The position numbers were made by a program, and so were the translations under genes. Below, one piece after another: positions 10,872 through 53,642 of a stretch of 64,000 nucleotides of DNA (within the stretch, counting starts at the first letter, position 1; each line of letters opens with the position of its first letter). A model generated the notes under the pieces. The model was not told the origin of the DNA. It ran no database searches and worked only from the letters and a program-made list of their open reading frames with translations. The stretch is from Bacilli bacterium (lineage in GTDB: Bacteria > Bacillota_I > Bacilli_A > RF39 > UBA660): contig JAFUTX010000031.1 of assembly GCA_017484065.1 (NCBI GenBank), positions 34,581 to 98,580 on the forward strand, given 5' to 3'.

Positions 10872-11792
10872 ATGAATGAACTAGCGTTAAACGAAGAATT
10901 AAAGATTGAAGATATGATTTATGAAATTAGAGGTAAACAAGTTATGCTTGATAGCGATTTGGCTCGACTTTACAAATGTAAAAATGGTACAAAGTCTATT
11001 AATTTAGCAGTTAAAAGACATATCTATAGATTCCCAGAAAGATTTATGTTTCAATTAACTGAAGAAGAAAGTAAAATTATTTGGTTTCAATTTGAAACCA
11101 AAAATGGTAAAGCAGAGACTCGTGGTGGGAAATTTGATAAACCATTTGTATTTACAGAACAAGGTGTAGCTATGCTTGCTACTGTTTTAAAAACTGAAGT
11201 AGCAGAAGAAGTTAGTATTAAAATAATGGATGCATTTGTAGTTATGAGACATTATATATCAAATAATTTGTTAGAGCAAAAATTTATTAATAATCTGGTA
11301 TTAGAAAATAATGAACGTATTAATAAAAACAGTAAAGATATTACTTTATTACAAGAATCATTTAATAAATTAGAAGAAAATAAAGAAATTAATGAAATAT
11401 ATTTTGATGGAAAGATATATAATGCACATTCTTTAGTTTTAGATATTTTTAATATGGCTAAAAAAGAGTTAATTATAGTTGATAGATATACTGATAAAAC
11501 TATATTAGATATGATAAGGAACTTAAACTGCAATGTAATATTAATTACAGGTAAAAATTCTAAACTAACTAAATTAGATATAGAAAAATATAATAAAGAT
11601 TATAATAACTTAAAAGTATATTATGACGATACATTCCATGATAGATATTTTATTCTTGATAGAAACATAATATATCACTCTGGTAATAGTGTTAATTATA
11701 TAGGATATAGAAAGTCATCGTTAAACTTATTAAAGGATAAATCGGTAAAGGCATCAATATTAAAAGATGTCGATAAAATAATAATGCTTTAG
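10872..11792 (+). CDS. ORF6N (KilA-N-like) domain protein with ~170-aa C-terminal extension
   Basis: ORF6N domain signature (RGGKF...FTEQGVAMLATVLKTEVA); C-terminal region contains FHDRYFILD. Confidence 0.8.
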   Translation: MNELALNEELKIEDMIYEIRGKQVMLDSDLARLYKCKNGTKSINLAVKRHIYRFPERFMFQLTEEESKIIWFQFETKNGKAETRGGKFDKPFVFTEQGVAMLATVLKTEVAEEVSIKIMDAFVVMRHYISNNLLEQKFINNLVLENNERINKNSKDITLLQESFNKLEENKEINEIYFDGKIYNAHSLVLDIFNMAKKELIIVDRYTDKTILDMIRNLNCNVILITGKNSKLTKLDIEKYNKDYNNLKVYYDDTFHDRYFILDRNIIYHSGNSVNYIGYRKSSLNLLKDKSVKASILKDVDKIIML

Positions 11793-11810
11793 TCGGAGGG
11801 GTTTTAAATT

Positions 11811-12224
11811 ATGAATGAATTACTAGTTAATGAAGAATTAAAGATTGAAGATATGATTTATGAAATTAGAGGTAAACAAGTTATGCTGGATAGTGACTTG
11901 GCATATCTGTATAAATGTAAGAACGGGACAAAAGAAATTAATCAAGCAGTAAGCAGAAACATTAATAAGTTTCCAGAAAGATTTTCCTGGAAATTAACTG
12001 ATAATGAATCCGAAAATCTTTTGGTCACAATTTGTGACCAAAAAGGAAAAATAGATAGAAGGGGTGGAAAATTTAAAAATCCAAGAGTATTTTCTGAAGA
12101 AGGCGTAGCAATGCTTGCTACAATTCTTAAAACAGAAGTTGCTGATGAAATTAGTATCAAAATAATGGATGCATTTGTAGTTATGAGAAAATATATTTCA
12201 AATAGTCTAGTAGAACTAAAATAA
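11811..12224 (+). CDS. ORF6N (KilA-N-like) domain protein, stand-alone paralog
   Basis: same domain; first ~56 nt of coding sequence identical to the upstream paralog. Confidence 0.8.
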   Translation: MNELLVNEELKIEDMIYEIRGKQVMLDSDLAYLYKCKNGTKEINQAVSRNINKFPERFSWKLTDNESENLLVTICDQKGKIDRRGGKFKNPRVFSEEGVAMLATILKTEVADEISIKIMDAFVVMRKYISNSLVELK

Positions 12225-14187: not shown

Positions 14188-14988
14188 TTATCTTCTTATA
14201 ATATTGTTTTGTTCAATTATATCTAATTTATAATTAGTATTTAATACCAAGTTTTCAAAAAATTTAATTAAGTAATCAGATGATTGTAAGCTCATTATTG
14301 GATGATTATCTATAGCTAAGGCATTTCTAAAATATAAAGAGTTTTCCATGAATACAGAATTATCTATGTTGTAGCCACGACTTTTTAAATACTTAATTAA
14401 AAAGACACTTATGGTTCTAGTATTTCCTTCTCTAAATGGATGAGCTTGCCAAATATTACTTATAAATCTAGCTAATCTTTTTATTCTTTTATCCATAGGT
14501 AATTCATCATAATTATAATTTAATTCAATATTGAAGTCATAATCTAAATAATCACTTATTTTATTATAGTCGGCATACATTACTGTATTCCCATTTAATA
14601 TATTTTCTTCTTTATCTAAATTACATTTTCTATAATTACCTGCAAAAGAGTAGACGTCCTTAAAAAGATTGTAATGAATTTCTTTTAACATATTAGGTGA
14701 TATTTCAAAAGATGTATCACTGTTTAAATAATCAACAATTCTATTACTGACAATATCACATTCCATTTTATTTCTTAATTCTTTATTACTTAAATCTTGA
14801 ACTTTATAAAACCTAGAAAGAATGGCTTCTAATTCTTCATTACTAATAATTCCATTGATGTTCTTTGTGGCTAATATTTGTAAAAATTTAGAAGGAGTTA
14901 AACCATCTACTTGTTGTAAGCCAATTGCTGTAGCCCATGATTTAATTGTTTCCTTTGTTTCATCGTCATAATTAGAGTTTATAAGCAT
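14188..14988 (-). CDS. Fic/Doc family protein with variant active-site motif HPFREGNTRT
   Basis: Fic fold motif at 14413-14442 (minus strand). Confidence 0.8.
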   Translation of the reverse strand: MLINSNYDDETKETIKSWATAIGLQQVDGLTPSKFLQILATKNINGIISNEELEAILSRFYKVQDLSNKELRNKMECDIVSNRIVDYLNSDTSFEISPNMLKEIHYNLFKDVYSFAGNYRKCNLDKEENILNGNTVMYADYNKISDYLDYDFNIELNYNYDELPMDKRIKRLARFISNIWQAHPFREGNTRTISVFLIKYLKSRGYNIDNSVFMENSLYFRNALAIDNHPIMSLQSSDYLIKFFENLVLNTNYKLDIIEQNNIIRR

Positions 14989-16181: not shown

Positions 16182-16283
16182 ATGAATAATTGTGGAAATA
16201 ATAACAATGGCTACGGATTTGGCCCTGCTATAATTTTAGTATTATTTATTCTTTTAATCATCATCGTAGGGGCTTTCATTTAG
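16182..16283 (+). CDS. YjcZ-like small hydrophobic sporulation peptide (33 aa)
   Basis: MNNCGNNNNGYGFGPAIILVLFILLIIIVGAFI; AAGGAGG 7 nt upstream; too short for the ORF track. Confidence 0.5.
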   Translation: MNNCGNNNNGYGFGPAIILVLFILLIIIVGAFI

Positions 16284-16312: not shown

Positions 16313-16426
16313 ATGAGCTGTTCATGTAAAAATAAAGGTAATAATAGTATCTCTTGCAATGCATTTATGATAATTATATTATATATATTATTAGCTATAA
16401 TACTTGGTGGAGTACTATTTTATTAA
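16313..16426 (+). CDS. second small hydrophobic peptide (37 aa), tandem to the first
   Basis: MSCSCKNKGNNSISCNAFMIIILYILLAIILGGVLFY; AAGGAGG 5 nt upstream. Confidence 0.45.
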   Translation: MSCSCKNKGNNSISCNAFMIIILYILLAIILGGVLFY

Positions 16427-16431
16427 ATAAC

Positions 16432-16460
16432 AAGAAGGAAAAGATAACCTTCTTTTTTTG
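16432..16460 (+). terminator. intrinsic terminator after the peptide pair
   Basis: AAGAAGG-aaaagataa-CCTTCTT plus TTTTTT. Confidence 0.6.
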
Positions 16461-16518
16461 TCGTTTTTTGTCGACTGCTTTTTCTTGGCTAAATGTTTTA
16501 CAAATGATAGTATTGATT

Positions 16519-16527
16519 GGGGGGGGG
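16519..16527 (+). repeat. G9 homopolymer in the abi ribosome-binding region
   Basis: 9 consecutive G ending 5 nt before the ATG at 16533. Confidence 0.7.
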
Positions 16528-16532
16528 TTATT

Positions 16533-17501
16533 ATGGTTGAATATAAAATATTAACTTCAGAAGAGTTAGTAAATCACTTAAAAGAAAAAAATATTAAATT
16601 TAATTATATTAGTGAAGAAGATGCTGTTAAATATTTAAAGAAAAATAATAGTTATTATAATTTAACATCTTATTTAAATAATTTTAAAAAATATCCATCT
16701 CCTGCTGGAAGATACGAAGGTATGTATATTGATTTAGATTTTGCTTACTTAAAAGATATGGCAATAGTAGATTATAGATTAAGGCTCATATTATTTAAAA
16801 TGACGACAGCAATAGAACATCATTTAAAATTAGAAATATTAAATAATATAAGTAAGTATAGTAATGATAATGGTTTATCATTAGTTAATAGTTATTTAGA
16901 AAAAGATTTTAATGATGAATTGTTTCCTAAAAAAATCCATCATAGTATTATAAGAAAAGTAGATAGTGATTATTATAAGAAACTATTTAACAATTATGAT
17001 ATAGACGGAGATAAAAAATTAGAAAATATACCACTATGGTTATTCTTAGAAGTTATAACATTTGGAGAATTAGTTAGATTTTATGAATATTATGCCCGTA
17101 CATATAGTTTAAAGAAAATAGTACATAATATTCATAATTTAAAAGATATAGTTAAATTAAGAAATGCTTGTGCACATAATACTAATATATTAAATGATTT
17201 AAATCAAAAAAATCATAATGTTAGTTTAAATTATGATATAACTCGCTTTTTAGAAAAATGCAATATTAATAAAAAAAGTAGACACAATAAAATGAGTAAT
17301 GCAAGAGTTAGACAAATAACTTGTACATTATTTGTATTTAATGAAATAGTCATTAGTGAAGGTGTTAGAAAAAGTGTTAAAAACGCTTTAAATAAATTCT
17401 TTTTTATAAGAATAAAAAGAAATAAAAAATACTATAATAATAATGAACTACTTATATCAGTATATAAATATTTTGAAAAAATAATTGGAAAAATATACTG
17501 A
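16533..17501 (+). CDS. Abi_2 (AbiD/AbiF-like) abortive-infection family protein
   Basis: Abi_2 family pattern; ATG at 16533 preferred over the longer track ORF starting 16458. Confidence 0.75.
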   Translation: MVEYKILTSEELVNHLKEKNIKFNYISEEDAVKYLKKNNSYYNLTSYLNNFKKYPSPAGRYEGMYIDLDFAYLKDMAIVDYRLRLILFKMTTAIEHHLKLEILNNISKYSNDNGLSLVNSYLEKDFNDELFPKKIHHSIIRKVDSDYYKKLFNNYDIDGDKKLENIPLWLFLEVITFGELVRFYEYYARTYSLKKIVHNIHNLKDIVKLRNACAHNTNILNDLNQKNHNVSLNYDITRFLEKCNINKKSRHNKMSNARVRQITCTLFVFNEIVISEGVRKSVKNALNKFFFIRIKRNKKYYNNNELLISVYKYFEKIIGKIY

Positions 17502-17508
17502 AAGGTAG

Positions 17509-17650
17509 TTGACATAAACGAATATCAATGATATATTGTTTATGCGAGTAAAAAAGAAATGTCTTTTTGCAAGGACACTATGATAGGTAGAGTCCTACTT
17601 TTTCTTTTATGAGAGATTACTTGTTGAGTAATCTCTTATTTTTTATATTT
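17509..17650 (+). ncRNA. candidate small RNA or leader: promoter followed by two tandem intrinsic terminators
   Basis: TTGACA-17-TATATT at 17509-17537; hairpin AGGAC..GTCCT plus U-tract (~17575-17610); hairpin GAGAGATTACT..AGTAATCTCTT plus U-tract (~17611-17650). Confidence 0.3.
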
Positions 17651-17698
17651 ACCCATTTATTTATAGTCTTTTTTTTTATTTAATGATATAATTATCTT

Positions 17699-24108: not shown

Positions 24109-25707
24109 ATGACAAATAAAAAGAAGATAATATCTTTAATACTTGTGTTGTGCTTATTAGTAGCACTAGGAGTAAGTTATGCTTTATGGACGACTAGTGA
24201 TAGCCAAAGTGATAATAATGAGTTAACTACAGATGATTGTATAGATATAGTATTTGAAGATAAAAGTAGTAATATAACATTAACAGATACAGTACCAGTA
24301 TTAGATAAGTTTGGTATGCAAAAGGCTGGTTATAGTTTTAAGATAACTAATAATTGTACTAAAAATGTCTCATATGATGTTAATTTAGAAAGTTTATCAA
24401 ATGTAGCAGAAGAAAATAGAACTAATTTAAATTATGTAAAGGTAGCATTAATAGAAAAGAGTAGTAATGAAACATATGCTTTTAATACATTAAATAATTT
24501 TGATACAACTAATAGTGTATTAGCTAGCGGTACTGCTTATGATACAAGAGTAATACTAAGAGATGTATTAAGGCCAAATAAATCAGTAGAATATACATTA
24601 AAGATGTGGATGGATGAGTCAACTCCTAATAGTGAACAAAATAAGACATATAATAGTCAAATTACTATATATGGAACACTAACTAATTCATATAATGCAG
24701 TAGAATATTTAACTGAATTAGCTAAGACTAATACAAATGAAATGTATTATGATGGAGCAAGTTATACTGATCCAGATACTAATGAATTAGTAGTAGATAA
24801 TAACCTAAGATATATGGGAGCTAATCCTAATAATTATGTCTGGTTTAATAATGAACCATGGCGAATAATAGGAGTGATGAACAATGTTAAAGGTTCATCT
24901 ACAGATGATGGTAGTGGTGAAACAAGAATTAAGTTGATTAGAGCAGAAAGTTTGGGAGAGTTTCCATACATTGATAGTTGTGCAGATGAATATTGGACAG
25001 ATAATGGTGATGGAACTTATACTTGTTCTTCTAAAAGATATAATAATAACTGGCCAAATAGTACAATAAATAGTTTATTAAATGATTTGTACTGGAATAG
25101 AAAAAATCATGAATCATATCATGGATGGGTTTTTAAAAATGGAACATGGCAAGATTATTTAACAGAAAAAATTGAATTTAAAAAGGATGGTTTAAGAACC
25201 AGTGATAAATCATTAATCGGAAATGCTGTATATTATTTGGGTGGCTACACAAAACAAAGCGAAAATAATTATTATGACTTAAATATGAATACTTCAAAAT
25301 GGTATGAAGCAGAACGAATAAATCAGGGAAATAATAACGAACTAACGTGGATAGGTAATTTGGGTTTAATGTATCCAAGTGATTATAGTTATGCTTCAAA
25401 ATATATATTATCTGATGATTGTAAAAATATCTCATTGTATTCTTGGGCTGAAAGTTTTAATAATAAATGTAAAAATAATGATTGGTTATATAATAGTGTG
25501 TTTTGGGAATGGACAATAACTCCGCGTGCTGATTCAAATGTAAGTTATGCTCATCAAAGCGGTGGCTACATCCGTAATAGTGATTATGGAACAATAGCCA
25601 GTTTTAGTATTCATCCTGTTTTATACCTAAAGAAAAATGTAGAAATGGCTAGTGGAGATGGGTCAAGAACAAATCCATATAGATTAACTATAGAGGAGGG
25701 AGTATAA
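24109..25707 (+). CDS. N-terminally anchored extracellular protein of unknown family (paralog 1, 532 aa)
   Basis: N-terminal TM/signal anchor; shared blocks DGASYTDPDT, NNYVWFNNE-WRIIGVMN, SSKRYNNNWPNST, NELTW-GNLGLMYPSDY, C-terminal NPYRL. Confidence 0.7.
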   Translation: MTNKKKIISLILVLCLLVALGVSYALWTTSDSQSDNNELTTDDCIDIVFEDKSSNITLTDTVPVLDKFGMQKAGYSFKITNNCTKNVSYDVNLESLSNVAEENRTNLNYVKVALIEKSSNETYAFNTLNNFDTTNSVLASGTAYDTRVILRDVLRPNKSVEYTLKMWMDESTPNSEQNKTYNSQITIYGTLTNSYNAVEYLTELAKTNTNEMYYDGASYTDPDTNELVVDNNLRYMGANPNNYVWFNNEPWRIIGVMNNVKGSSTDDGSGETRIKLIRAESLGEFPYIDSCADEYWTDNGDGTYTCSSKRYNNNWPNSTINSLLNDLYWNRKNHESYHGWVFKNGTWQDYLTEKIEFKKDGLRTSDKSLIGNAVYYLGGYTKQSENNYYDLNMNTSKWYEAERINQGNNNELTWIGNLGLMYPSDYSYASKYILSDDCKNISLYSWAESFNNKCKNNDWLYNSVFWEWTITPRADSNVSYAHQSGGYIRNSDYGTIASFSIHPVLYLKKNVEMASGDGSRTNPYRLTIEEGV

Positions 25708-27323
25708 TGAAAAATAAGAAAGTATTAGTAATAGTTATAGTTCTTCTTCTAGTAGTAGTTATTCTAGGTGCTTCATATGCTTTATGGACAACTACAGCAC
25801 ATCAAGATGGTAATAATAGTGCAGCGTTATCTTGTTTAGATATAACTTATGAAAGTATTAGTGAAAATAATATAGAATTAAATGAAGTTTTACCTATAAC
25901 AGATGAAGCAGGTTTAGCTTTAGAAGGATACACTTTTAAAATAACAAATAATTGTAATAGTATAGTAAGATATCAAGTTAATTTAGAAACATTAAATATA
26001 AGTAATGATACTAAGTATTTAAATATAGATTATTTAGATGCTACTATAGATAATGAGTTTATTGAAACATTAGGTAATTATGAAAGTACAACTACACTAC
26101 TAAGTGATAATGAAGCTAGAGATGCTAGAATAATAAAAGAAGGATTATTAGATAAAAGTAGTAATACATCTACTAATAGTGTAATTCATACTTTAAGAGT
26201 ATGGTTAGATAAAGATACTCCTACTAGTGAGAAGTATGCACAATGGAGAGGTAAGATAACTATAAATGCTACAACTCCAACAGAAGATATAATCTATGAT
26301 ACAGCAGCTAACTATTTAACAAATGTAGTAAAACCTACAACAGATGAACTTGTATATGATGGAGCAAGTTATACTGATCCAGATACAGGAGTAGAAATAG
26401 TAGATAATAACTTAAGATATGTTGGAGCCAATCCAGATAACTATGTTTGGTTTAATAATGAGTTATGGAGAATTATTGGTGTAATGAACCATGTAAAAGG
26501 TGGAGAGAATGCACCTAGTGAAGGAGAGACAAGACTTAAGTTAATAAGAGATGAAAGTTTGGGAAATTTTCCGTATTATGAAGATTGTTTAGAAGAAAAT
26601 ATGAATTATGACGCTCAAACTGATAAATGGACATGTTCAAGTAAAAGATACAATAATAATTGGCCAAATAGTACGGCTAATGAAATACTAAATGATTTGT
26701 ATTGGAATCGAAGGCCTCATGCTCCATATAATGGTTACATGTATTTAAAAACCGGCAATCAAACATCTTTTACATGGCAAGATTATAAAACTGAAGCTGT
26801 CGATTTTAGGAATAGTGGACTTAAGAAAGTTTATCAAAATATGATGGAAACTGCTACATATTATTTAGGCGGATATACTTGGGATAATGGTGGTACTTAT
26901 GATGGAGTAACAATGAATACTAAACAGTATTATACAGCTGAAAGAACAAATCAAGGAATTAATAACGAGTTAACGTGGGCAGGAAATTTAGGCTTAATGT
27001 ATCCAAGTGATTATGGCTATGCAAGCAGTGGTTCTGTATCAGGTAGTAGCTGTAGAAATATAGTCCTTAGTACATGGAGTCAGGCAGCAAATGCAAATTG
27101 CAGAAATAACAACTGGTTATTTAGCAGTGCATTCTGGCAATGGACAATGACTCTGCGTGTTGATTATACAATCAATGTGGCAGATGTGAGCATTAGTGGC
27201 AATGTTTCCCACGATAACACGCATATCGGTTTTGGCTTGCGCCCTGTAGCATACCTAAAATCACAAGTCAAAATAATTGGTGGTATAGGTTCTTCAGATA
27301 ACCCATATCGCTTAAGCTTATAA
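25707..27323 (+). CDS. N-terminally anchored extracellular protein of unknown family (paralog 2, 538 aa)
   Basis: same conserved blocks as paralog 1; start overlaps the stop of paralog 1. Confidence 0.7.
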   Translation: MKNKKVLVIVIVLLLVVVILGASYALWTTTAHQDGNNSAALSCLDITYESISENNIELNEVLPITDEAGLALEGYTFKITNNCNSIVRYQVNLETLNISNDTKYLNIDYLDATIDNEFIETLGNYESTTTLLSDNEARDARIIKEGLLDKSSNTSTNSVIHTLRVWLDKDTPTSEKYAQWRGKITINATTPTEDIIYDTAANYLTNVVKPTTDELVYDGASYTDPDTGVEIVDNNLRYVGANPDNYVWFNNELWRIIGVMNHVKGGENAPSEGETRLKLIRDESLGNFPYYEDCLEENMNYDAQTDKWTCSSKRYNNNWPNSTANEILNDLYWNRRPHAPYNGYMYLKTGNQTSFTWQDYKTEAVDFRNSGLKKVYQNMMETATYYLGGYTWDNGGTYDGVTMNTKQYYTAERTNQGINNELTWAGNLGLMYPSDYGYASSGSVSGSSCRNIVLSTWSQAANANCRNNNWLFSSAFWQWTMTLRVDYTINVADVSISGNVSHDNTHIGFGLRPVAYLKSQVKIIGGIGSSDNPYRLSL

Positions 27324-27368: not shown

Positions 27369-27385
27369 TTCGACACCATTCGACA
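27369..27385 (+). promoter_or_regulatory. two TTCGACA (Spo0A-box-like) motifs 10 bp apart in the repeated YhcG leader
   Basis: TTCGACAccaTTCGACA; reverse complement is TGTCGAA. Confidence 0.35.
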
Positions 27386-27468: not shown

Positions 27469-27813
27469 ATGAATAAAGTAAAAAAATTAGATAAAAATGC
27501 AACACAAGATTTTAAAAATATAGTTAATAATATTAAAAATGAAATTAAAACAACTCAAATTAAAGTTGCAATAGAAGCAAATAAAAATTTAATTAATCTT
27601 TATTTTAGAATAGGAAAAATATTAAATGATAATTTTAAATATGGCAATAAATTTATAGATGATGTATCACGTGAAATAAAACTAGAATTCCCAAATATTG
27701 AAGGCTTCTCGGTTAGAAATCTCAAATATATGAAAAAATTTTATTTAGAATATAAAGATAATGAAGTTGTGCAACGCGTCGTTGCACAACTTCCGTGGAG
27801 ACAAATTATTTAA
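27469..27813 (+). pseudogene. YhcG/DUF1016-family nuclease, N-terminal fragment (copy A)
   Basis: LEFPNIEGFSVRNLKYMKKFY...QLPW motifs; ends after 114 aa. Confidence 0.55.
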
Positions 27814-27838
27814 GTCTTATATGTTATAGTGCTTTTAA

Positions 27839-27846
27839 GGGGGGGG
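27839..27846 (+). repeat. G8 homopolymer inside a repeated leader copy
   Basis: AAGGGGGGGGAAAA where the other leader copies have AAGGGAAA. Confidence 0.6.
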
Positions 27847-27889: not shown

Positions 27890-28810
27890 ATGAATAAAAC
27901 TAAAGATTTAAAAGATGATTATTATAATGAAATTAAAGAAAAATTAATTGAAGATATAGCTTATAGTGCTGTAAAAGATATGTCTAAAGAAAGACATAGA
28001 GTAGCAACTTATTATGATGTTGGCAAAATATTAGCAGAAGCTGGTAAACATTATGGTGATGGTATCATTAAAGAATATTCTAACAAATTAAAAAATGAAC
28101 TTGGAAAAAAATACAACGAACGAACATTGAGAAGTATGCGTCAGCTATATTTATTTTTTGGAAAACAAAAATGGTCCCCAGTGGGGACCAAATTGTCAAT
28201 CAGTCATATTAGACTGTTATTTTGCTTTGATGATAACAATAAAGTAAATTATTATGCTGAACAAGTGGAAAAAAGAAGTCTTTCAAAAAGACAACTGGAA
28301 GAATTAATTAAATCTAAAGAATATGAAAGATTAGATGAAGAAGCTAAATTATAATTAATTAATAAAGAAGATACTGCAATTACTGATTTAATACCAAATC
28401 CTATTATTATTAAAAATACGGCTAATGTTAATGAAGATAATCTAAAAGAAAAAGTCCTTCAACAAATAATTATGGAAGATATTCCATCATTTTTAGAAAA
28501 TCTTGGTAATGGCTATACTTTTATTAAAAATGAGTACAAAATAAAGATAGGTGATCATTTTAATTACATTGATTTGTTACTGTACAATTATAAATGTAAT
28601 TCGTTTGTAGTTGTCGAGTTAAAGGTATCAGAATTAAAGAAAGAACATATAGGACAGATTCATGTATATATGAATTATATTGATGATAATGTAAAGACTA
28701 TAAATCAAAATGCAACTATTGGGATTATTTTAGTTAGAAAAAATAATGAGTTTATTATGGAATATTGTAGTGATGAAAGAATAAAAGCTCGTGAATATGA
28801 ATTAGTTTGA
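27890..28810 (+). pseudogene. YhcG/DUF1016-family PDDEXK nuclease interrupted by a single in-frame TAA at 28352-28354 (copy B)
   Basis: ORFs 27890-28354 and 28472-28810 share a frame; the only stop between them is the TAA; downstream part carries PDDEXK-like D..ELK (IDLLLYN...VVVELKVSELKKEHIGQ). Confidence 0.65.
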
Positions 28811-28821
28811 TTTTTTATCTG

Positions 28822-28838
28822 TTCGACACTATTCGACA
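28822..28838 (+). promoter_or_regulatory. two TTCGACA (Spo0A-box-like) motifs 10 bp apart, second leader copy
   Basis: TTCGACActaTTCGACA. Confidence 0.35.
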
Positions 28839-28921: not shown

Positions 28922-29518
28922 ATGAAGAAAACGAAAAACTTAAAAGATAATTATTATAATAAAATTAAAGAAAAATTAATTGAAGATATAGCTTATAGTG
29001 CTATAAAAGATATGTCTAAAGAAAGACATACAGTTCAAACTAATTATGAGGTAGGTAAAATACTAGCAGAAGCCGGTAAAAATTATGGGGAAAATATTAT
29101 AGGAAAATATGCTGAAAAATTAGTTGCTGAAGTCCATAAAAAATACCACGAGCGGACATTAAGAAGATATCGTCAATTCTATCTTACTTTTGAAAATCAA
29201 AAATGGTCGCAAGCGGCGACCATTTTGAACTGGTCTCATTACGTAGAACTTTTACCTTTAAAAAATAGTAATGCAATATTATATTATATAGAACAATGTA
29301 AACAATTACATTTAACTAGGAATAAATTAAGAAATAAAATTAAGTCAAAAGAGTATGAAAGATTAGATGATGAAACTAAATTAAAACTAATTAATAAAGA
29401 AGAAATTACTTTAAATGATTTAATTCCTAATCCTATTATTATAAAGGCTAGTAGTATAGAAGATAAGGAGCATATTAAAGAGTATATGTTAAAGAAAATA
29501 ATAATATTAAGAAATTAG
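28922..29518 (+). pseudogene. YhcG/DUF1016-family N-terminal domain fragment, no nuclease domain (copy C)
   Basis: 198 aa with DUF1016 N-domain motifs; ends before the PDDEXK region. Confidence 0.5.
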
Positions 29519-29589: not shown

Positions 29590-29596
29590 TTCGACA
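29590..29596 (+). promoter_or_regulatory. single TTCGACA (Spo0A-box-like) motif upstream of spoIIGA
   Basis: same heptamer about 60 nt upstream of the spoIIGA start. Confidence 0.3.
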
Positions 29597-29656: not shown

Positions 29657-30409
29657 ATGAAAGTATATCTTGATATAGTTATAATACTTAATTTTGTAAT
29701 AGATAGTATGTTACTTTTTACAGTTGCATCTATATTAAAAAGACAAACTAGTATTAAAAGAATAATACTAGCTAGCTTAGTCGGAGAACTATCTATTATT
29801 CATTTATTTATTCATATGAATACTTTTATTTTATTTATATATAAAATGTTAATAAGTTTTATTATGGTAATAGTAGCATTTAAATATGAAGATATTAAAT
29901 TTACTTTAAATAACTATGTATATTTATTTATGACTAGTTTTATTTTGGGAGGTACGTTAACATTTCTTGATAGCGAAGGGATAAGTTACTATATCTTATT
30001 AATATTTATACCAATCGTATTATATGGATATATTAAGACACAAAAGAAAATAACTACTGATTATAGTTTTTATTACAATATAAAAATAGTATTTAATAAT
30101 AATAAAGAAGTGTGTCTAACCGCATTTTTAGATACTGGTAATAAACTAGTAGATCCAATTACTAACGAAGGAATTATTTTAGTAGAAAAAGAAGTATTAG
30201 ATGGTTTAGTAAGAGTAAGAAGTCCTATCTATGTACCATATAATAGCTTAAATAATCATAGTTTACTTAAGTGTATTAAACCAAAGTATATTGAAATAAA
30301 TAATCATAAATTCACTAATTACTTAATAGGTATTAGTGAAGTTAAATTTAATATTGATGGAGTAAAATGTATTTTAAATTATAAGATAATGGAGGATATT
30401 AATGCTTAA
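29657..30409 (+). CDS. spoIIGA: sigma-E processing peptidase SpoIIGA
   Basis: 5 N-terminal TM helices, aspartic protease DTGN motif, followed by sigE. Confidence 0.8.
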   Translation: MKVYLDIVIILNFVIDSMLLFTVASILKRQTSIKRIILASLVGELSIIHLFIHMNTFILFIYKMLISFIMVIVAFKYEDIKFTLNNYVYLFMTSFILGGTLTFLDSEGISYYILLIFIPIVLYGYIKTQKKITTDYSFYYNIKIVFNNNKEVCLTAFLDTGNKLVDPITNEGIILVEKEVLDGLVRVRSPIYVPYNSLNNHSLLKCIKPKYIEINNHKFTNYLIGISEVKFNIDGVKCILNYKIMEDINA

Positions 30410-31082
30410 AAAATTTATAATATGGTTAAAAAGAAAATGCAGTAAATGTTTTTATGTTGGTAGTACAGATAAATTACCACCACCTTTATCCAAAGAAGAA
30501 GAAATGCATTATTTAGTATTAAGTAAAGAAGGAGATAAAGATGCTACTAATAAATTAATTGAACATAATTTAAGATTAGTTGTATTCTTAGCCAAAAAAT
30601 ATGAAGGTACGGGAGAATCTATAGAGGATTTAGTTAGTATTGGTTCAATAGGACTTATTAAAGGAATTAATACTTATAAAATAGATAAGAATATTAAACT
30701 TGCCACTTATGCTTCTCGTTGTATTTCCAATGAAATATTAATGTTTTTAAGAAAAAATAAAAAAAGAAAAATGGAAGTTAGTTTAGAAGATAGCCTAAAT
30801 TATGATAGTGAAGGTAATGAATTAAGATTAGAAGACGTACTTGGTACAGAAGATGATATTGTCCCTAAAGAATTTGAAAATAATATGGATAAAGAAAGAT
30901 TAAAAGAACAAATAAGTAAATTAAATAAAAGAGATAAACAAATTATGATACTTAGATATGGTTTAAATAACGGAGATGAATATACACAAAAAGAAGTAGC
31001 AGAAATGTTAAATATTAGTCAGTCGTATATATCAAGAATAGAAAAGAAAATAATTAGTAATTTACAAGAAACATTAAATTAA
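30402..31082 (+). CDS. sigE: sporulation sigma factor SigE (pro-sigma-E)
   Basis: pro-sequence, sigma-70 regions 2 and 4, follows spoIIGA. Confidence 0.85.
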   Translation: MLKKFIIWLKRKCSKCFYVGSTDKLPPPLSKEEEMHYLVLSKEGDKDATNKLIEHNLRLVVFLAKKYEGTGESIEDLVSIGSIGLIKGINTYKIDKNIKLATYASRCISNEILMFLRKNKKRKMEVSLEDSLNYDSEGNELRLEDVLGTEDDIVPKEFENNMDKERLKEQISKLNKRDKQIMILRYGLNNGDEYTQKEVAEMLNISQSYISRIEKKIISNLQETLN

Positions 31083-49013: not shown

Positions 49014-52000
49014 ATGAAGGTATTAATTATTAAAAATAATCAAATCATTAATTATGATTTGCCTTCTAAAATCTTTGGTAATTATTGGATTAAAGATACT
49101 GATTTAAATGGTAATGAAAGAAATCTAATAAATGTTGAAGAATATAATGGAAAATGGAAGATAAAAAGCAATAATGATTGTAAAATTATTTATAATAATA
49201 CTTATCAAGAAGCGGTTTATTTAGCTGAATATAGTTATTGTGAATTAGAAGTAAAAGGGGAAGTAGAACACTTTATACTTTATTGTTGTCCAGTTTATGA
49301 AAAATCTTATAATATTTATGCTATTAAAGGAACTAGAGTACTACTAGTAGGTAATGATTCATCTAACCATATTATTTATAAAAGTAATGATATAGCACGC
49401 CAACAAATAAAGTTAACAAGCAATAATGTTTTTTGGAACTTGCAAAATATTCAAGAGAATAGGAAAGTGTATGTTAATAACTTAGCAGTTACTAACAAAA
49501 ATCTAGTATATGGCGATATTATATTCTTAATGGGATTAAAAATAATTGTTTTAAACAATTATATATTAATAAATAATCCTAATAATTTAGTAGAGGTTAA
49601 TACTCAGAATCTTGAATTAATTAATTTAACAGAAGTTGAAGATAATCCTGAAGAAGATGATGATACATTAGAAGTTTATTCTAAAAATGATTATTATTAT
49701 CGTTCTCCTAGATTTAAAAGTAATATAGCTAAAGAAGATTTAACAATTGATCCTCCTCCTGGAGCTCAAAATAACAATCAACTACCTTTTTGGCTAGCTA
49801 TGGGTTCAATGATGGTTATGGGCATGCGTTCTGTATTTGGTTTGATGGATGTTATTAATAGTGTTAGTACTGGAAAAACTACTTGGGGCGACGCAATGCC
49901 TAGCTTACTTACTAATGGTTCAATGATTTTTGGGTCATTAATGATTCCAGTAATGACAAGAATGTATCAAAAAAAAGCAGCTAAAAAATACGAAAGAAAA
50001 AGACAAAAAAAATATAGTGATTATTTGGCAATGCAACGTAATGTTATTAGTAATATTATGAAAAAGCAAAAAGATATTTTACTTAATAATTATCCGTCAG
50101 TAGAAGAGTGCTATAACATAATAGTTAATCGTAAAAGAAATCTTTGGGAAAGAAAAATTGATAATGAAGACTTCTTAACATTGCGGGTAGGTTTAGGCAA
50201 TACTAAAGTAGAATTAGATTTAAAGTATCAAGAAAAGCATTTTTCGATGGATGAAGATAATTTACTTAATGATATGTATCGAATGACTGATGAATTACAA
50301 GAATTAAAAGATGTGCCAGTTACTATTTCTTTAACTGAAAAATTTGTATCAGCTATTCTTGGTAATAGCAACGTTATATCAAATTATTTAGAAACATTAA
50401 TTATTCAAATGATTACATATCATAGCTATGAAGATTTAAAAATAGTAGTTCTTACTGATGAAAAGAATGCTTATAAATATGAATACTTAAAAGTATTACC
50501 TCATTGTTGGAGTAATGATAAAAGCATTAGATTCTTTGGTACTAATAATGATGATATAAATAAAATATCAATGTATTTAATGAATGAATTTAAAGAACGT
50601 AAGTATCAAGATGAAGAAGAACAAAACTCTTCTAAAGAAGATGATTATAAGAGTTATTCACCGTACTACATGATTATTACAGATAATTTTGCTAATGCCA
50701 GAAAAGTAGAGATAATTAGAAATACTTTAGAACAAACAATTAATTATGGGTTTAGTTTGCTTATACTTGCTAATAGATTAAATGAGTTACCTAATGAATG
50801 TACGTCTTTCTTAAATATCGATACTAACATATCAGGTATGATTGAAAATGATTTATCATTAGAAAGTCAAAAGCCGTTTAAAGCTGATTTTAATAGTAAG
50901 GTAAATATTTATGAATGTGCTACTAGACTTGCTAATATACCAATAGAATTATCTAATGGTAGCTATGATTTACCTAATATGATTAGTTTTTTAGAAATGT
51001 ATAATGTTGGTAATGTTGATCAATTAAACTCTATGGAACGTTGGAAAAACAATAATCCTGTTGCATCTCTTCAAGTTCCAGTTGGAGTTAACGAAAGTGG
51101 CGATTTATTCAAACTAGATTTACATGAAAAAGCTCATGGCCCTCATGGTTTAATTGCAGGTACTACAGGTAGTGGTAAATCAGAATTTATTATTACTTAT
51201 ATTTTAAGCCTTGCTGTTAATTATCATCCTTATGAAGTTAGTTTTGTTTTAATTGACTACAAAGGTGGAGGATTAGCTGGGGCTTTTGAAAATAAAGATA
51301 CTGGTGTAAAATTACCACACTTAGCAGGTACAATTACTAACTTGGATATCACTGAGATTAATCGTTCGCTAGCTAGTATAGAAAGTGAACTTAAAAGACG
51401 TCAAAGAATATTTAATGAAGCTCGTGATAAACTAGAAGAAAGTACAATAGATATTTATAAATATCAAAGATATTATCGTGAAGGTTTAGTTACAGAACCA
51501 GTAAGTCATTTGTTTATTATAAGTGATGAGTTTGCTGAATTAAAAGCACAACAACCTGAGTTTATGGCACAACTTATACAAACAGCTCGTATTGGTCGTA
51601 GTTTAGGAGTACACTTAATTTTAGCAACACAAAAACCAAGTGGGGTTGTAGATGATCAAATATGGTCTAACTCTAAATTTAGAGTATGTTTAAAAGTTCA
51701 AGATAAATCAGATAGTAATGACATGATTAAATGCCCAGACGCAGCAAAACTATCAAATCCTGGTAGATTCTATTTACAAGTAGGATATAATGAGTTGTTT
51801 GCTTTAGGACAATCAGCATGGTGTGGAGCACCTTATTATGCAACTGATATGCGTAAAAAGACTATTGATGCTAATCTTAATTTCTTAGATACAGTTGGAG
51901 AAGTAGTAAAAAGTGTTGATCGTCAAAAAGGTGTAAACGCTGTAAAAGCAGATGGAGAAGAATTACCTCATATTGTCAAATATTTGACAAAGATAGCTAA

Positions 52001-53642
52001 GGCAGAAAATATTAATATTAGACCTTTATGGATTGATAGAATACCTGATGTAATCTTTATTGATCAGTTAAAAGAAAAATACAATTATAAACCTGAGAGA
52101 TTAAAACTTAATCCTATAATTGGTGAATATGATGATCCACATAATCAAAGACAAGATATTCTTACATTACCAATAGAAGGTAATAGTGTTATTTATGGTA
52201 TTACTGGTAGTGGTAAAGATTTACTTATTAATTCAATTATATATTCTTGTGTAACTAATCATTCAGTAGATGAAATTAATTTCTACTTACTAGATTTTGG
52301 CTCTGAAACACTTAGAATGTTTAAAAATATTCCACATGTTGGAGATGTATTATTCTCAAATGATGCTGATAAAATAGACAATCTATTTAAAATGTTAAAA
52401 GAAGAATGTGAAATAAGAAAGAATCTATTTGCTGATTATAATGGTAGTTATGAATATTATTGTAATAATAGTGGTAATGTGATTCCAAAAATTGTTGTAA
52501 TCTTCAATGCCTTTGAAGCATTTACAGAATTATTCCCAGATTATAATGATATCTTAGTTACATTAACTAGAGAAGCTACTAGATATGGAATATATTTCAT
52601 AATAAGTACAAGTGGTACTAATTCAATTCGTTATAAATTAGCTGCCAACTTCACACAAAGTATTGCTTTACAATTAAATGATAAGAGTGATTATACATCA
52701 GTTCTAGGAAATACTGGCGGAGTTCTTCCAAGTAAAATATATGGTCGTGGAGTAATTAATCTAAATGGTGGTTACTATGAGTTCCAAACTGCATACATGT
52801 ATGAAAGAGATAAAACTTTAGAATTTGTTAATGCTTTATCTAAAAAACTTAACGAAGTTTATAAACATCGTGCTAAAAAGATCCCAGTATTACCTGAGGT
52901 AGTAACTATTGAAGAAATAGAAAGTGAAATAAATACACTAGATAATGTACCAATTGGTATACGTAAAGATGACTTAGTAATAGAAACATTTGACTTTGAT
53001 AGTAAATTTGTTACTAATATTGCAAGTCAAGATATTGAAGCTTTTACACCATTTGTACCATCATTAATTAATTTATTATGTACTAAATATAAGAATAAAA
53101 TATCTATATTAGATGCTGCTGGTATATTTAAGAAGAATAAATTCACTTGTGATTATGTATCAAGTGGCTTTAATAAATACTTTGATAGTTTAGAAGCTAC
53201 TATAAATGAGTTAGACAAAGAGGCTAGTAGCAAAGGATATAGTGATGATTATTTAAATACATTTGAAAAAAGATTTATCATAATTACGGGAATTCAAGAT
53301 TGGTCAGTTAATATGGGTGGTACTGAATTTGGTAAACGTTATGAAGAATTCTTAAATAAATGTAATAAATTAAAAGTAGTTAAAATTATTTATGTAGATA
53401 TGATTGATAAATTAAAGAAACTAGATTTTGAATCATGGTATAAAAACTTTAATGAAGCTAATCGTGCTATTTGGGTTGGTAGTGGACTAGGTGGACAATT
53501 TACTATTAAGTTAAATAAAAATCCAAGATATTTAAATGATCAAATTGATAATAATTATGGTTATACTATTAACAATGGTAATGTATCTACATTAGTTAAA
53601 TTACTTGATGACCAGCCTAAAAGTGGTATGGACACATTATAG
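49014..53642 (+). CDS. essC: type VII secretion system FtsK/SpoIIIE-family ATPase EssC
   Basis: N-terminal FHA-like region, two TM helices, three FtsK-like ATPase domains (D1 Walker A GTTGSGKSEF); ATG at 49014 with GGGGTGA RBS. Confidence 0.9.
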   Translation: MKVLIIKNNQIINYDLPSKIFGNYWIKDTDLNGNERNLINVEEYNGKWKIKSNNDCKIIYNNTYQEAVYLAEYSYCELEVKGEVEHFILYCCPVYEKSYNIYAIKGTRVLLVGNDSSNHIIYKSNDIARQQIKLTSNNVFWNLQNIQENRKVYVNNLAVTNKNLVYGDIIFLMGLKIIVLNNYILINNPNNLVEVNTQNLELINLTEVEDNPEEDDDTLEVYSKNDYYYRSPRFKSNIAKEDLTIDPPPGAQNNNQLPFWLAMGSMMVMGMRSVFGLMDVINSVSTGKTTWGDAMPSLLTNGSMIFGSLMIPVMTRMYQKKAAKKYERKRQKKYSDYLAMQRNVISNIMKKQKDILLNNYPSVEECYNIIVNRKRNLWERKIDNEDFLTLRVGLGNTKVELDLKYQEKHFSMDEDNLLNDMYRMTDELQELKDVPVTISLTEKFVSAILGNSNVISNYLETLIIQMITYHSYEDLKIVVLTDEKNAYKYEYLKVLPHCWSNDKSIRFFGTNNDDINKISMYLMNEFKERKYQDEEEQNSSKEDDYKSYSPYYMIITDNFANARKVEIIRNTLEQTINYGFSLLILANRLNELPNECTSFLNIDTNISGMIENDLSLESQKPFKADFNSKVNIYECATRLANIPIELSNGSYDLPNMISFLEMYNVGNVDQLNSMERWKNNNPVASLQVPVGVNESGDLFKLDLHEKAHGPHGLIAGTTGSGKSEFIITYILSLAVNYHPYEVSFVLIDYKGGGLAGAFENKDTGVKLPHLAGTITNLDITEINRSLASIESELKRRQRIFNEARDKLEESTIDIYKYQRYYREGLVTEPVSHLFIISDEFAELKAQQPEFMAQLIQTARIGRSLGVHLILATQKPSGVVDDQIWSNSKFRVCLKVQDKSDSNDMIKCPDAAKLSNPGRFYLQVGYNELFALGQSAWCGAPYYATDMRKKTIDANLNFLDTVGEVVKSVDRQKGVNAVKADGEELPHIVKYLTKIAKAENINIRPLWIDRIPDVIFIDQLKEKYNYKPERLKLNPIIGEYDDPHNQRQDILTLPIEGNSVIYGITGSGKDLLINSIIYSCVTNHSVDEINFYLLDFGSETLRMFKNIPHVGDVLFSNDADKIDNLFKMLKEECEIRKNLFADYNGSYEYYCNNSGNVIPKIVVIFNAFEAFTELFPDYNDILVTLTREATRYGIYFIISTSGTNSIRYKLAANFTQSIALQLNDKSDYTSVLGNTGGVLPSKIYGRGVINLNGGYYEFQTAYMYERDKTLEFVNALSKKLNEVYKHRAKKIPVLPEVVTIEEIESEINTLDNVPIGIRKDDLVIETFDFDSKFVTNIASQDIEAFTPFVPSLINLLCTKYKNKISILDAAGIFKKNKFTCDYVSSGFNKYFDSLEATINELDKEASSKGYSDDYLNTFEKRFIIITGIQDWSVNMGGTEFGKRYEEFLNKCNKLKVVKIIYVDMIDKLKKLDFESWYKNFNEANRAIWVGSGLGGQFTIKLNKNPRYLNDQIDNNYGYTINNGNVSTLVKLLDDQPKSGMDTL

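What the first reader, a model, noticed from the sequence alone, without database searches (positions are those of the whole stretch)
16519..16527. G9 and G8 homopolymer tracts in an AT-rich genome: possible phase-variation switches
Nine consecutive G residues end 5 nt upstream of the Abi_2 start codon, functioning as or embedded in its Shine-Dalgarno region. An 8-G run at 27839-27846 sits in the YhcG leader exactly where the other leader copies have GGG (AAGGGAAA versus AAGGGGGGGGAAAA), so it arose by homopolymer expansion. Long poly-G tracts in so AT-rich a sequence are unlikely by chance. In other bacteria such tracts mediate slipped-strand phase variation. A tract in the RBS of an abortive-infection gene could switch phage defence ON and OFF by altering translation initiation.
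Basis: partly seen in the sequence, partly recalled or inferred. Interest (0 to 1): 0.55.

Follow-up and report, generated by a model that had tools for sequence, protein, structure and literature searches.

The report
Slippage-prone poly-G at an Abi gene start
A run of nine G's forming the ribosome-binding site of a phage-defence (AbiD-like) gene in an uncultured gut bacterium changes length (G9/G10) between otherwise identical natural populations, so it is a real mutational hot spot, but nothing shows that it turns the gene on and off.

Summary
Both tracts are real. G9 lies at 16519-16527 and G8 at 27839-27846. They are the only G/C runs of 6 or more in a 25.7 % GC window (about 0.03 runs of 8+ expected).

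G9 ends 5 nt before the ATG of a 322-aa Abi_2/AbiD gene. It fits this genome's GGGG(G)-type Shine-Dalgarno sequences and starts 5 nt after a predicted extended -10, so transcription probably starts inside it.

Key result: one public assembly (ERZ27256836) matches the window over 20,114 bp except that the tract is G10. In run SRR12529329 the assembly breaks exactly at the tract, with G9 on both contig ends, as an unresolved G9/G10 mixture would give. Three other assemblies have G9. The tract is therefore hypermutable in nature.

An ON/OFF translational switch is not supported. The tract's 3' edge is fixed, so spacing does not change. Predicted anti-SD pairing barely changes (G8 -13.5, G9 -14.2, G10 -14.8 kcal/mol), and no length-dependent mRNA fold appears. 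A graded effect or none is more likely.

G8 is different. It lies in the 5' leader, 43 nt before the start codon, of a YhcG copy inactivated by an in-frame TAA, and it is G8 in all four assemblies.

Verdict: a candidate contingency locus of a known kind, with function untested.

The parts
16519..16527 (+). G9 homopolymer. It is the probable Shine-Dalgarno sequence and probable transcription start region of the Abi gene. It is G10 in one other assembly.
   Evidence: presence and excess; GGGG/GGGGG SDs are common in this genome; anti-SD pairing; G10 allele in ERZ27256836; assembly break at the tract in SRR12529329.
16533..17501 (+). Abi_2 / AbiD-like abortive-infection gene, 322 aa.
   Evidence: Pfam Abi_2 1.8e-24; PADLOC AbiD 3.4e-21. 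The N-terminal alignment shows that ATG 16533 is a normal start for the family. The gene is absent at this site in the nearest sister species.
16485..16513 (+). Predicted sigma-A promoter: -35 TTGGCT (16485-16490), 17-nt spacer, extended -10 TGaTAGTAT (16505-16513). The tract starts 5 nt downstream.
   Evidence: Read. The site scores below the threshold of the consensus scan. It is supported by analogy: 39 of 63 distinct homologue upstream regions carry TGnTAnWWT, and in most of them the motif ends 22-31 nt before the start codon. Inferred, not shown.
16432..16461 (+). Hairpin plus T-run, the terminator of the upstream tiny-peptide genes. It marks the left edge of the Abi cassette.
   Evidence: fold, weak: z -1.36. 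The same hairpin is present in the sister species, and the sequences diverge immediately after it.
16504..16506 (+). Upstream ATG that is in frame with the Abi ORF only when the tract is G7 or G10 (it would add MIVLIGGGVI). With G9 it opens a 16-codon overlapping ORF. It has no SD and lies inside the predicted -10.
27839..27846 (+). G8 homopolymer in the 5' leader of YhcG copy B. It lies 8 nt after an extended -10-like TGTTATAGT (27822-27830) and 43 nt before the ATG.
   Evidence: G8 is present in four assemblies.
27890..28810 (+). YhcG/DUF1016 copy B. It is full length (DUF1016_N + YhcG_C) but carries an in-frame TAA at 28352-28354, so it is a probable pseudogene.
   Evidence: Copy C has AAA at the same codon.
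27469..27813 (+). YhcG copy A, a 5' fragment (DUF1016_N positions 1-97). Its leader has GGG where B has G8.
28922..29518 (+). YhcG copy C, N-terminal domain only. Its leader has GGG where B has G8.

Best explanation
The G9 run is a real slippage-prone homopolymer. It forms the Shine-Dalgarno sequence, and probably the first transcribed bases, of a horizontally acquired AbiD-like abortive-infection gene. Replication slippage changes its length, and G9 and G10 alleles coexist in natural populations of one clone (shown). The tract's 3' edge stays 5 nt from the ATG and any 5-6 G's can pair with the anti-SD. One-base changes should therefore tune expression slightly, through the SD register or the length of the G-run that RNA polymerase must clear at initiation, rather than switch it off (inferred). 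The tract is best described as a mutable volume control of small or unknown amplitude, not a binary switch. The G8 run is a second tract of independent origin near the predicted start of the leader of a nonsense-inactivated YhcG copy. It shows no length variation, and I see no way it could control a functional gene.
For: Tract presence and excess. G10 is the only difference over 20,114 bp in ERZ27256836. In SRR12529329 the contigs end at 16527 and start at 16519, each with G9, which is the pattern an unpopped G9/G10 de Bruijn bubble gives. This genome often uses GGGG or GGGGG as SD, with a 6-11 nt gap (mostly 8-9) to the ATG. Some Abi homologues have G5-G6 SDs at the same place. Duplex energies with the anti-SD: G5 -11.9, G8 -13.5, G9 -14.2, G10 -14.8 kcal/mol. 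No length-dependent leader fold is predicted. The extended -10 just upstream is a family-wide feature. The run-length spectrum over 837 kb of this lineage has a second mode at 8-9 (5 and 2 observed against 0.27 and 0.04 expected, none at 7), and all seven such tracts lie at gene 5' ends. For G8: separate SD, in-frame stop, and invariance. Precedents for graded effects of G(n) tracts near a transcription start or in a leader: PMC7864442, PMC7302503, PMC11898584.
Against: No expression data exist. The transcription start is predicted only, and the promoter scores 8/12 plus TG, below the scan threshold. The anti-SD sequence was assumed, because the 16S rRNA gene is not in the window. Tract lengths come from assembly consensus and contig topology, not read counts. 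All samples appear to come from one project and one clone, so independence is limited. In uspA1 and the tpr genes, one-G changes do give large expression changes without an obvious geometric reason, so a strong effect cannot be excluded.
Confidence: 0.45

Rival explanations
1. Neutral mutational hot spot. A GGGGG-type SD drifted to G9 by slippage. The length fluctuates, but expression of the Abi gene is not measurably affected and the tract is not maintained by selection. G8 is likewise a neutral product in decaying DNA.
For: SD pairing and spacing are insensitive to +/-1. No structural effect is predicted. G4-G5 SDs are common starting material. G8 sits in front of a pseudogene among three defective, 12-18 % diverged YhcG copies.
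Against: The run-length spectrum has a gap at 7 and a second mode at 8-9 rather than a smooth tail. All long tracts in 837 kb lie at gene 5' ends. Uninterrupted G8-9 persists in a 25 % GC genome. In a related lineage a G8 tract of this kind is conserved across 26 paralogous copies in many metagenomes.
Confidence: 0.3
2. Classical ON/OFF phase variation of abortive infection. One-base slippage in the RBS or start region toggles Abi synthesis and gives defended and undefended subpopulations.
For: G9 and G10 alleles coexist in one clone. Tract length is in the hypermutable range. The gene is a defence or toxin-like gene, for which bet-hedging is plausible. uspA1 (G9 low, G10 high in some strains) and the T. 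pallidum tpr genes (8 or fewer G permissive) show large effects of single-G changes near a transcription start.
Against: The tract is outside the ORF and not between -35 and -10. SD spacing is unchanged and SD strength nearly flat. No alternative fold is predicted. No allele seen so far (G9, G10) removes any recognisable signal.
Confidence: 0.15
3. Frame-dependent alternative start. With G10 (or G7) the ATG at 16504 is in frame and gives a 332-aa Abi protein with a hydrophobic N-terminal extension. With G9 it gives a 16-codon upstream ORF that overlaps the true start.
For. The two alleles observed are exactly the out-of-frame (G9) and in-frame (G10) states. Many homologues are 329-342 aa long.
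Against: There is no SD before ATG 16504, and it lies inside the predicted extended -10. The extension MIVLIGGGVI does not resemble homologue N-termini, and several homologues start even later than ATG 16533. The strong SD plus ATG 16533 remains in both alleles.
Confidence: 0.05
4. Sequencing or assembly artefact. The tract length, or its apparent variation, is a homopolymer error.
For: Illumina indel errors rise in long G runs. All data seem to come from one project. Tract lengths were read from assemblies, not reads.
Against: The same G9 and G8 occur in several assemblies made with different assemblers. A majority-rule assembler produced G10 in an otherwise identical 20-kb stretch. Two other runs from the same accession series assembled straight through the tract, while SRR12529329 broke exactly at its edges.
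Confidence: 0.05

Closest known systems
Treponema pallidum poly-G tracts at tpr / tp0126 promoters (PMC7864442)
   Same: A G8-G11 homopolymer lies next to the transcription start of a gene. It varies in length within isolates, mostly around G9, and modulates transcription without changing the -35/-10 spacing (tprL).
   Different: There the tract lies upstream of the start site and overlaps the -10. Here it lies downstream of the predicted -10 and doubles as the SD. The genome here is AT-rich and the gene is a phage-defence gene, not a surface antigen. The effect is untested here.
Moraxella catarrhalis uspA1 G(n) tract (PMC7302503)
   Same: The G(n) tract lies upstream of the ORF, not in the coding sequence. 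Switching is graded (high/low) rather than ON/OFF, and single-G differences matter.
   Different: The uspA1 tract is separate from the RBS. Its effect is on mRNA level and has been measured. Here the effect is unknown and the tract is itself the probable SD.
Mycobacterium tuberculosis espR 5'UTR poly-G (PMC11898584)
   Same: A poly-G at the 5' end of a transcript's leader. A +1 G variant arises frequently and changes translation efficiency.
   Different: There the effect is attributed to refolding of a long structured GC-rich leader. The leader here is about 13 nt and no length-dependent fold is predicted.
Campylobacter / Neisseria / Haemophilus poly-G/C contingency loci (PMC8355987)
   Same: AT-rich genomes with very few G/C tracts of 8 or more, concentrated at gene 5' ends, and modal lengths of 8-10.
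   Different: Most of those tracts are intragenic frameshift switches. Here the tract is in the leader, and no census of the whole genome was possible.
Phase-variable phage defence (type I/III R-M phasevarions, PMC5909438; C. difficile CwpV, PMC4737114; Streptomyces Pgl/BREX pglX G-tract, from memory)
   Same: Stochastic heritable variation of an anti-phage function.
   Different: Those cases use intragenic repeats or DNA inversion and have shown phenotypes. I found no documented SSR-controlled Abi_2/AbiD gene in the literature searches.
Reiterative transcription at G runs (Bacillus subtilis pyrG; from memory, not checked here)
   Same: A run of G's at the transcription start lets RNA polymerase slip and add extra G's, which affects productive initiation.
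   Different: pyrG uses GGG and a downstream attenuator that the poly-G pairs with. No attenuator follows here. The only U/C-rich partner is upstream, and it pairs with the tract only at G11 or more in a read-through transcript.

Membership tests
Simple-sequence-repeat contingency (phase-variable) locus | Uninterrupted homopolymer in the hypermutable length range (G/C of about 7-8 or more), in excess of chance | tested here: met
   G9 and G8; expected 0.025 runs of 8+.
Simple-sequence-repeat contingency (phase-variable) locus | Tract placed where its length can affect expression (promoter, leader/RBS or 5' coding region) | tested here: inconclusive
   G9 lies between the predicted -10 and the ATG, inside the SD. 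Modelling shows no length sensitivity. G8 lies in the leader of a pseudogene.
Simple-sequence-repeat contingency (phase-variable) locus | Length polymorphism within or between populations of one strain | tested here: met
   For G9: G10 in ERZ27256836 with no other change in 20,114 bp, and an assembly break at the tract in SRR12529329. For G8: not met, because all four assemblies have G8. This rests on assembly-level evidence, not read counts.
Simple-sequence-repeat contingency (phase-variable) locus | Reversible switching of expression or phenotype with tract length | not testable with these tools
   Needs reporters or transcript and protein measurements.
Abi_2 / AbiD-type abortive infection protein | Abi_2 domain above the curated threshold | tested here: met
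   Pfam PF07751, 87.5 bits against a cut-off of 25.6; PADLOC AbiD 3.4e-21.
Abi_2 / AbiD-type abortive infection protein | Abortive-infection phenotype against phage | not testable with these tools
Shine-Dalgarno sequence | Complementarity to the 16S 3' tail at a workable distance from the start codon | tested here: met
   Duplex -14.2 kcal/mol with an assumed CCUCC tail. GGGGG registers are available at 5-9 nt from the ATG, and other genes here use GGGG(G) at 6-11 nt, mostly 8-9. The 16S gene of this organism is not in the window.
YhcG / DUF1016 PD-(D/E)XK nuclease (gene behind G8) | Intact ORF with DUF1016_N and YhcG_C domains | tested here: not met
   Both domains are present, but there is an in-frame TAA at codon 155. 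Copies A and C are truncated.
Promoter-spacer phase variation (porA / tp0126 type) | Tract between the -35 and -10 hexamers | tested here: not met
   No -10-like element fits between either tract and the start codon. Both tracts lie downstream of the best extended -10.

The most novel reading that the evidence does not exclude
The poly-G that is both the transcription start and the ribosome-binding site of an AbiD-like toxin gene is a selected bet-hedging device. Slippage between G9, G10 and neighbouring lengths would create heritable subpopulations with different Abi levels, possibly including an N-terminally extended isoform in the G10 frame. This would trade phage protection against Abi toxicity. 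G8-9 tracts at gene 5' ends would then form a small 'phasome' in this group of uncultured, AT-rich gut Bacilli.
Probability: 0.2. Interest if true: 0.6.

Novelty: new member of a known kind. Interest (0 to 1): 0.4.

Why it matters
Phase variation by simple repeats has been studied almost entirely in cultured pathogens. This case gives assembly-level evidence that a poly-G tract mutates in natural populations of an uncultured commensal gut bacterium, directly in front of an abortive-infection gene. If tract length tunes Abi expression, it would add abortive infection to the defence functions known to vary stochastically (R-M, BREX/Pgl, CwpV). It would also be a case where the repeat is itself the ribosome-binding site. 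If it does not, it is still a useful warning: a hypermutable tract in an RBS need not be a switch.

Tried and rejected
- **Exact-flank DNA scans.** Scans for the Abi tract with a variable gap in genome contigs and metagenome contigs found nothing. The organism is rare.
- **Other strains of the species.** The PrsA neighbour has no relative between 72 % and 100 % identity among 5.8 billion proteins. The 72 % sister contig lacks the Abi gene at this site, so no orthologous tract exists to compare.
- **Homologous Abi loci in 74 other species.** They have ordinary SDs, a few with G5-G6, and no long tract at this position.
- **Consensus promoter scan.** It is uninformative in this AT-rich DNA, because sites found equal the shuffled expectation.
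- **Length-dependent mRNA folding.** None was found for either leader. In a hypothetical read-through transcript the tract pairs with the upstream U/C-rich terminator arm only at G11 or more. I rejected this as a working mechanism for G9/G10.
- **Known RNA families near either tract.** None was found.
- **Tract inside a -35/-10 spacer, or a leaderless mRNA.** Both were rejected from the sequence.
- **N-terminal extension from ATG 16504.** Considered and judged unlikely.
- **Plasmid similarity.** None was found.
- **Precedents in the literature.** Searches for an SSR-controlled Abi gene or an SD-embedded tract found no direct precedent.

Full report
**Observation.**
The window is 25.7 % G+C. 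Its only G or C runs of six or more are G9 at 16519-16527 and G8 at 27839-27846. A first-order model expects 0.025 runs of 8+ and 0.004 of 9+. Dinucleotide shuffles give 0.05 GGGGGGGG matches against 3 observed. G9 is followed by TTATT and the ATG at 16533 of a 322-aa ORF. That ORF matches Pfam Abi_2 (87.5 bits) and PADLOC AbiD.

**Organism and locus.**
Homologous Abi loci and neighbouring proteins come from uncultured gut 'Bacilli / Tenericutes / Mycoplasma sp. CAG' metagenome-assembled genomes. The window is ordinary chromosome. It carries nusA, infB, ackA, frr, alaS, pheST, spoIIGA-sigE and others.

The Abi gene sits after a small terminator hairpin that closes two tiny-peptide genes. In the nearest sister species (PrsA 72 % identical) the same hairpin is followed by a different gene. 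The Abi cassette, with its promoter and G-tract, is therefore a species-specific insertion. No Abi protein between 61 % and 99 % identity exists in the database, so there is no orthologous tract to compare.

**Anatomy around G9.**
- The best promoter reading is TTGGCT, a 17-nt spacer, then TGaTAGTAT at 16485-16513. It scores only 8/12 plus the TG extension and is missed by the consensus scan.
- 39 of 63 distinct homologue upstream regions carry TGnTAnWWT, and in most of them the motif ends 22-31 nt before the start codon. A promoter immediately upstream with a very short leader is therefore the family pattern.
- Here the -10 ends 5 nt before the tract, so the usual +7 start falls on about the second G (inference).
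- Other genes in the window often use GGGG or GGGGG as SD, 6-11 nt (mostly 8-9) before the ATG. Some Abi homologues have G5-G6 SDs. The G9 is thus an over-long version of a normal SD type.
- The N-terminal alignment shows ATG 16533 is a normal start.

**Does the tract vary?**
Yes. The same clone occurs in several public assemblies.
- G9 is found in ERZ27256833 (3 substitutions in 20 kb), and in the Logan assemblies of SRR12529357 and SRR12529324 (both 100 % identical).
- ERZ27256836 contig k141_642606 is identical to the window over 20,114 bp except for one inserted G, giving G10.
- In the Logan assembly of SRR12529329 one contig ends exactly at 16527 (...ATTGATT + G9). Another starts exactly at 16519 (G9 + TTATTATGG). 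Both are otherwise 100 % identical. This is the topology expected when a de Bruijn graph contains G9 and G10+ paths that are not resolved.

This is not a read count, and the samples seem to come from one project. Even so, a single-base tract change is the only difference in 20 kb. Together with a break at precisely the tract edges, that is the signature of a hypermutable site.

**Would a length change switch the gene?**
The evidence is against a binary translational switch.
- The 3' edge of the tract, and hence the minimum SD-ATG gap, is fixed.
- Predicted pairing with an assumed CCUCC tail is -11.9 (G5), -13.5 (G8), -14.2 (G9) and -14.8 (G10) kcal/mol.
- Leader folds do not change with length.
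- Only at G11 or more, and only in a read-through transcript, does the tract pair with the upstream U/C-rich arm.
- The tract is not in a -35/-10 spacer.

Two graded effects remain possible. First, a GGGGG register at the genome's usual 8-9 nt gap exists only when the tract has 8-9 or more G's. Second, a long G run at the start site may favour polymerase slippage. G10 also brings an upstream ATG (16504) into frame. That ATG has no SD, lies in the predicted -10, and would add an N-terminus unlike the family's.

Published cases show that single-G changes near a start site or in a leader can matter without an obvious geometric reason. These are T. pallidum tpr, uspA1 and espR. A functional effect is therefore open, not excluded.

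**Lineage context.**
Across 837 kb (the window plus 74 related-species loci) G/C run counts are 6 at length 6, 0 at length 7, 5 at length 8 and 2 at length 9. A geometric fit expects 11.9, 1.8, 0.27 and 0.04. All seven long tracts lie at gene 5' ends.
- In L015 two G8 tracts lie in the first codons of paralogous glycine-rich membrane proteins that flank an Abi_2 homologue.
- In L057 G8/G9/G8 tracts (C-runs on the locus + strand) lie about 45 nt upstream of at least two paralogous genes of the same family, again flanking an Abi_2 homologue.
- The L015-type tract was found 26 times in metagenomes: 20 G8, 2 G9, 3 GAGGGGGG and 1 GGGGGGAGG.

Long G tracts in these bacteria thus form a distinct, position-specific class with some +1 variants.

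**The G8 tract.**
It lies 8 nt after TGTTATAGT (27822-27830) and 43 nt before the ATG at 27890. That ATG has its own SD, AGAGGA.

The gene behind it (copy B) has both YhcG domains but an in-frame TAA at codon 155, where copy C has AAA. Copies A and C are truncated. Leaders A and C have GGG at this place. However, the net length difference is +3 and the flanks also differ.

Four assemblies all have G8. The simplest reading is a slippage product in a decaying duplicate. It has no demonstrable switching role.

**Verdict.**
The tracts are real and non-random, and the G9 tract is shown to be length-polymorphic. A phage-defence ON/OFF switch through the RBS is not supported by the geometry, and a graded effect or none is more likely. 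This is a candidate new member of the known class of SSR contingency loci, with its function untested.

Noticed in passing
window 27763-27793, 28172-28190, 29200-29226: Each of the three YhcG copies has a perfect palindrome (14-, 8- and 11-bp stems) of different sequence at the homologous position inside the DUF1016_N coding region. On the minus strand they look like intrinsic terminators followed by T-runs. Copy A is truncated about 7 nt after its palindrome.
   Followed up: partly
window 27369-27385, 28822-28838, 29590-29596: TTCGACA, the reverse complement of the Spo0A-box consensus TGTCGAA as I recall it, occurs as a tandem pair in YhcG leaders A and C and once in front of spoIIGA-sigE (29657..31082). 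The window has 8 matches against 2.1 expected. The YhcG leaders look like duplicates of the spoIIG promoter region. TGTCGAC and GTCG repeats also lie just upstream of the Abi promoter (16458-16475).
   Followed up: partly
L015 4398-5650 and 6953-7060; L057 21-1460 and 2896-3945; L082-L105: In two other species the Abi_2 homologue is flanked by paralogous glycine-rich membrane or surface protein genes (motif TGTYKIE(L/T)WGAQGG). These carry G8/G9 tracts in their first codons (L015) or about 45 nt upstream (L057). In metagenomes the L015-type tract is G8 in 20 of 26 copies, with interrupted variants that mostly keep the 8-nt frame. The only SD-preceded ATG upstream is out of frame at G8.
   Followed up: partly
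window 24109-25707 and 25707-27323: Tandem paralogous genes encode 532- and 538-aa secreted or membrane-anchored proteins with no Pfam or PADLOC match. Another assembly (ERZ27256833) breaks here, and the apparent 'SNPs' at its contig ends are paralogue mix-ups.
   Followed up: no
window 17510-17698: Between the Abi stop and the next gene lies a near-consensus promoter (TTGACA, 17 nt, TATATT). It is followed by about 130 nt with hairpins and T-runs. This may be a small RNA or a structured leader. There is no Rfam match.
   Followed up: no
window 10872-12224, 14188-14988: Other defence-associated genes lie near the Abi gene among housekeeping genes. Two ORF6N paralogues share a stretch about 78 % identical, and the larger one matches PADLOC PDC-S05. 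A Fic protein matches PDC-S72.
   Followed up: no
window 16182-16283 and 16313-16426: Two tiny genes (33 and 37 aa) encode Gly/Cys-rich peptides with hydrophobic tails. They are conserved with their terminator in the sister species.
   Followed up: no
window 49014-53642: A 1542-aa protein with FtsK/SpoIIIE domains (possibly EssC-like) lies next to a sortase-domain protein and a FemAB protein.
   Followed up: no
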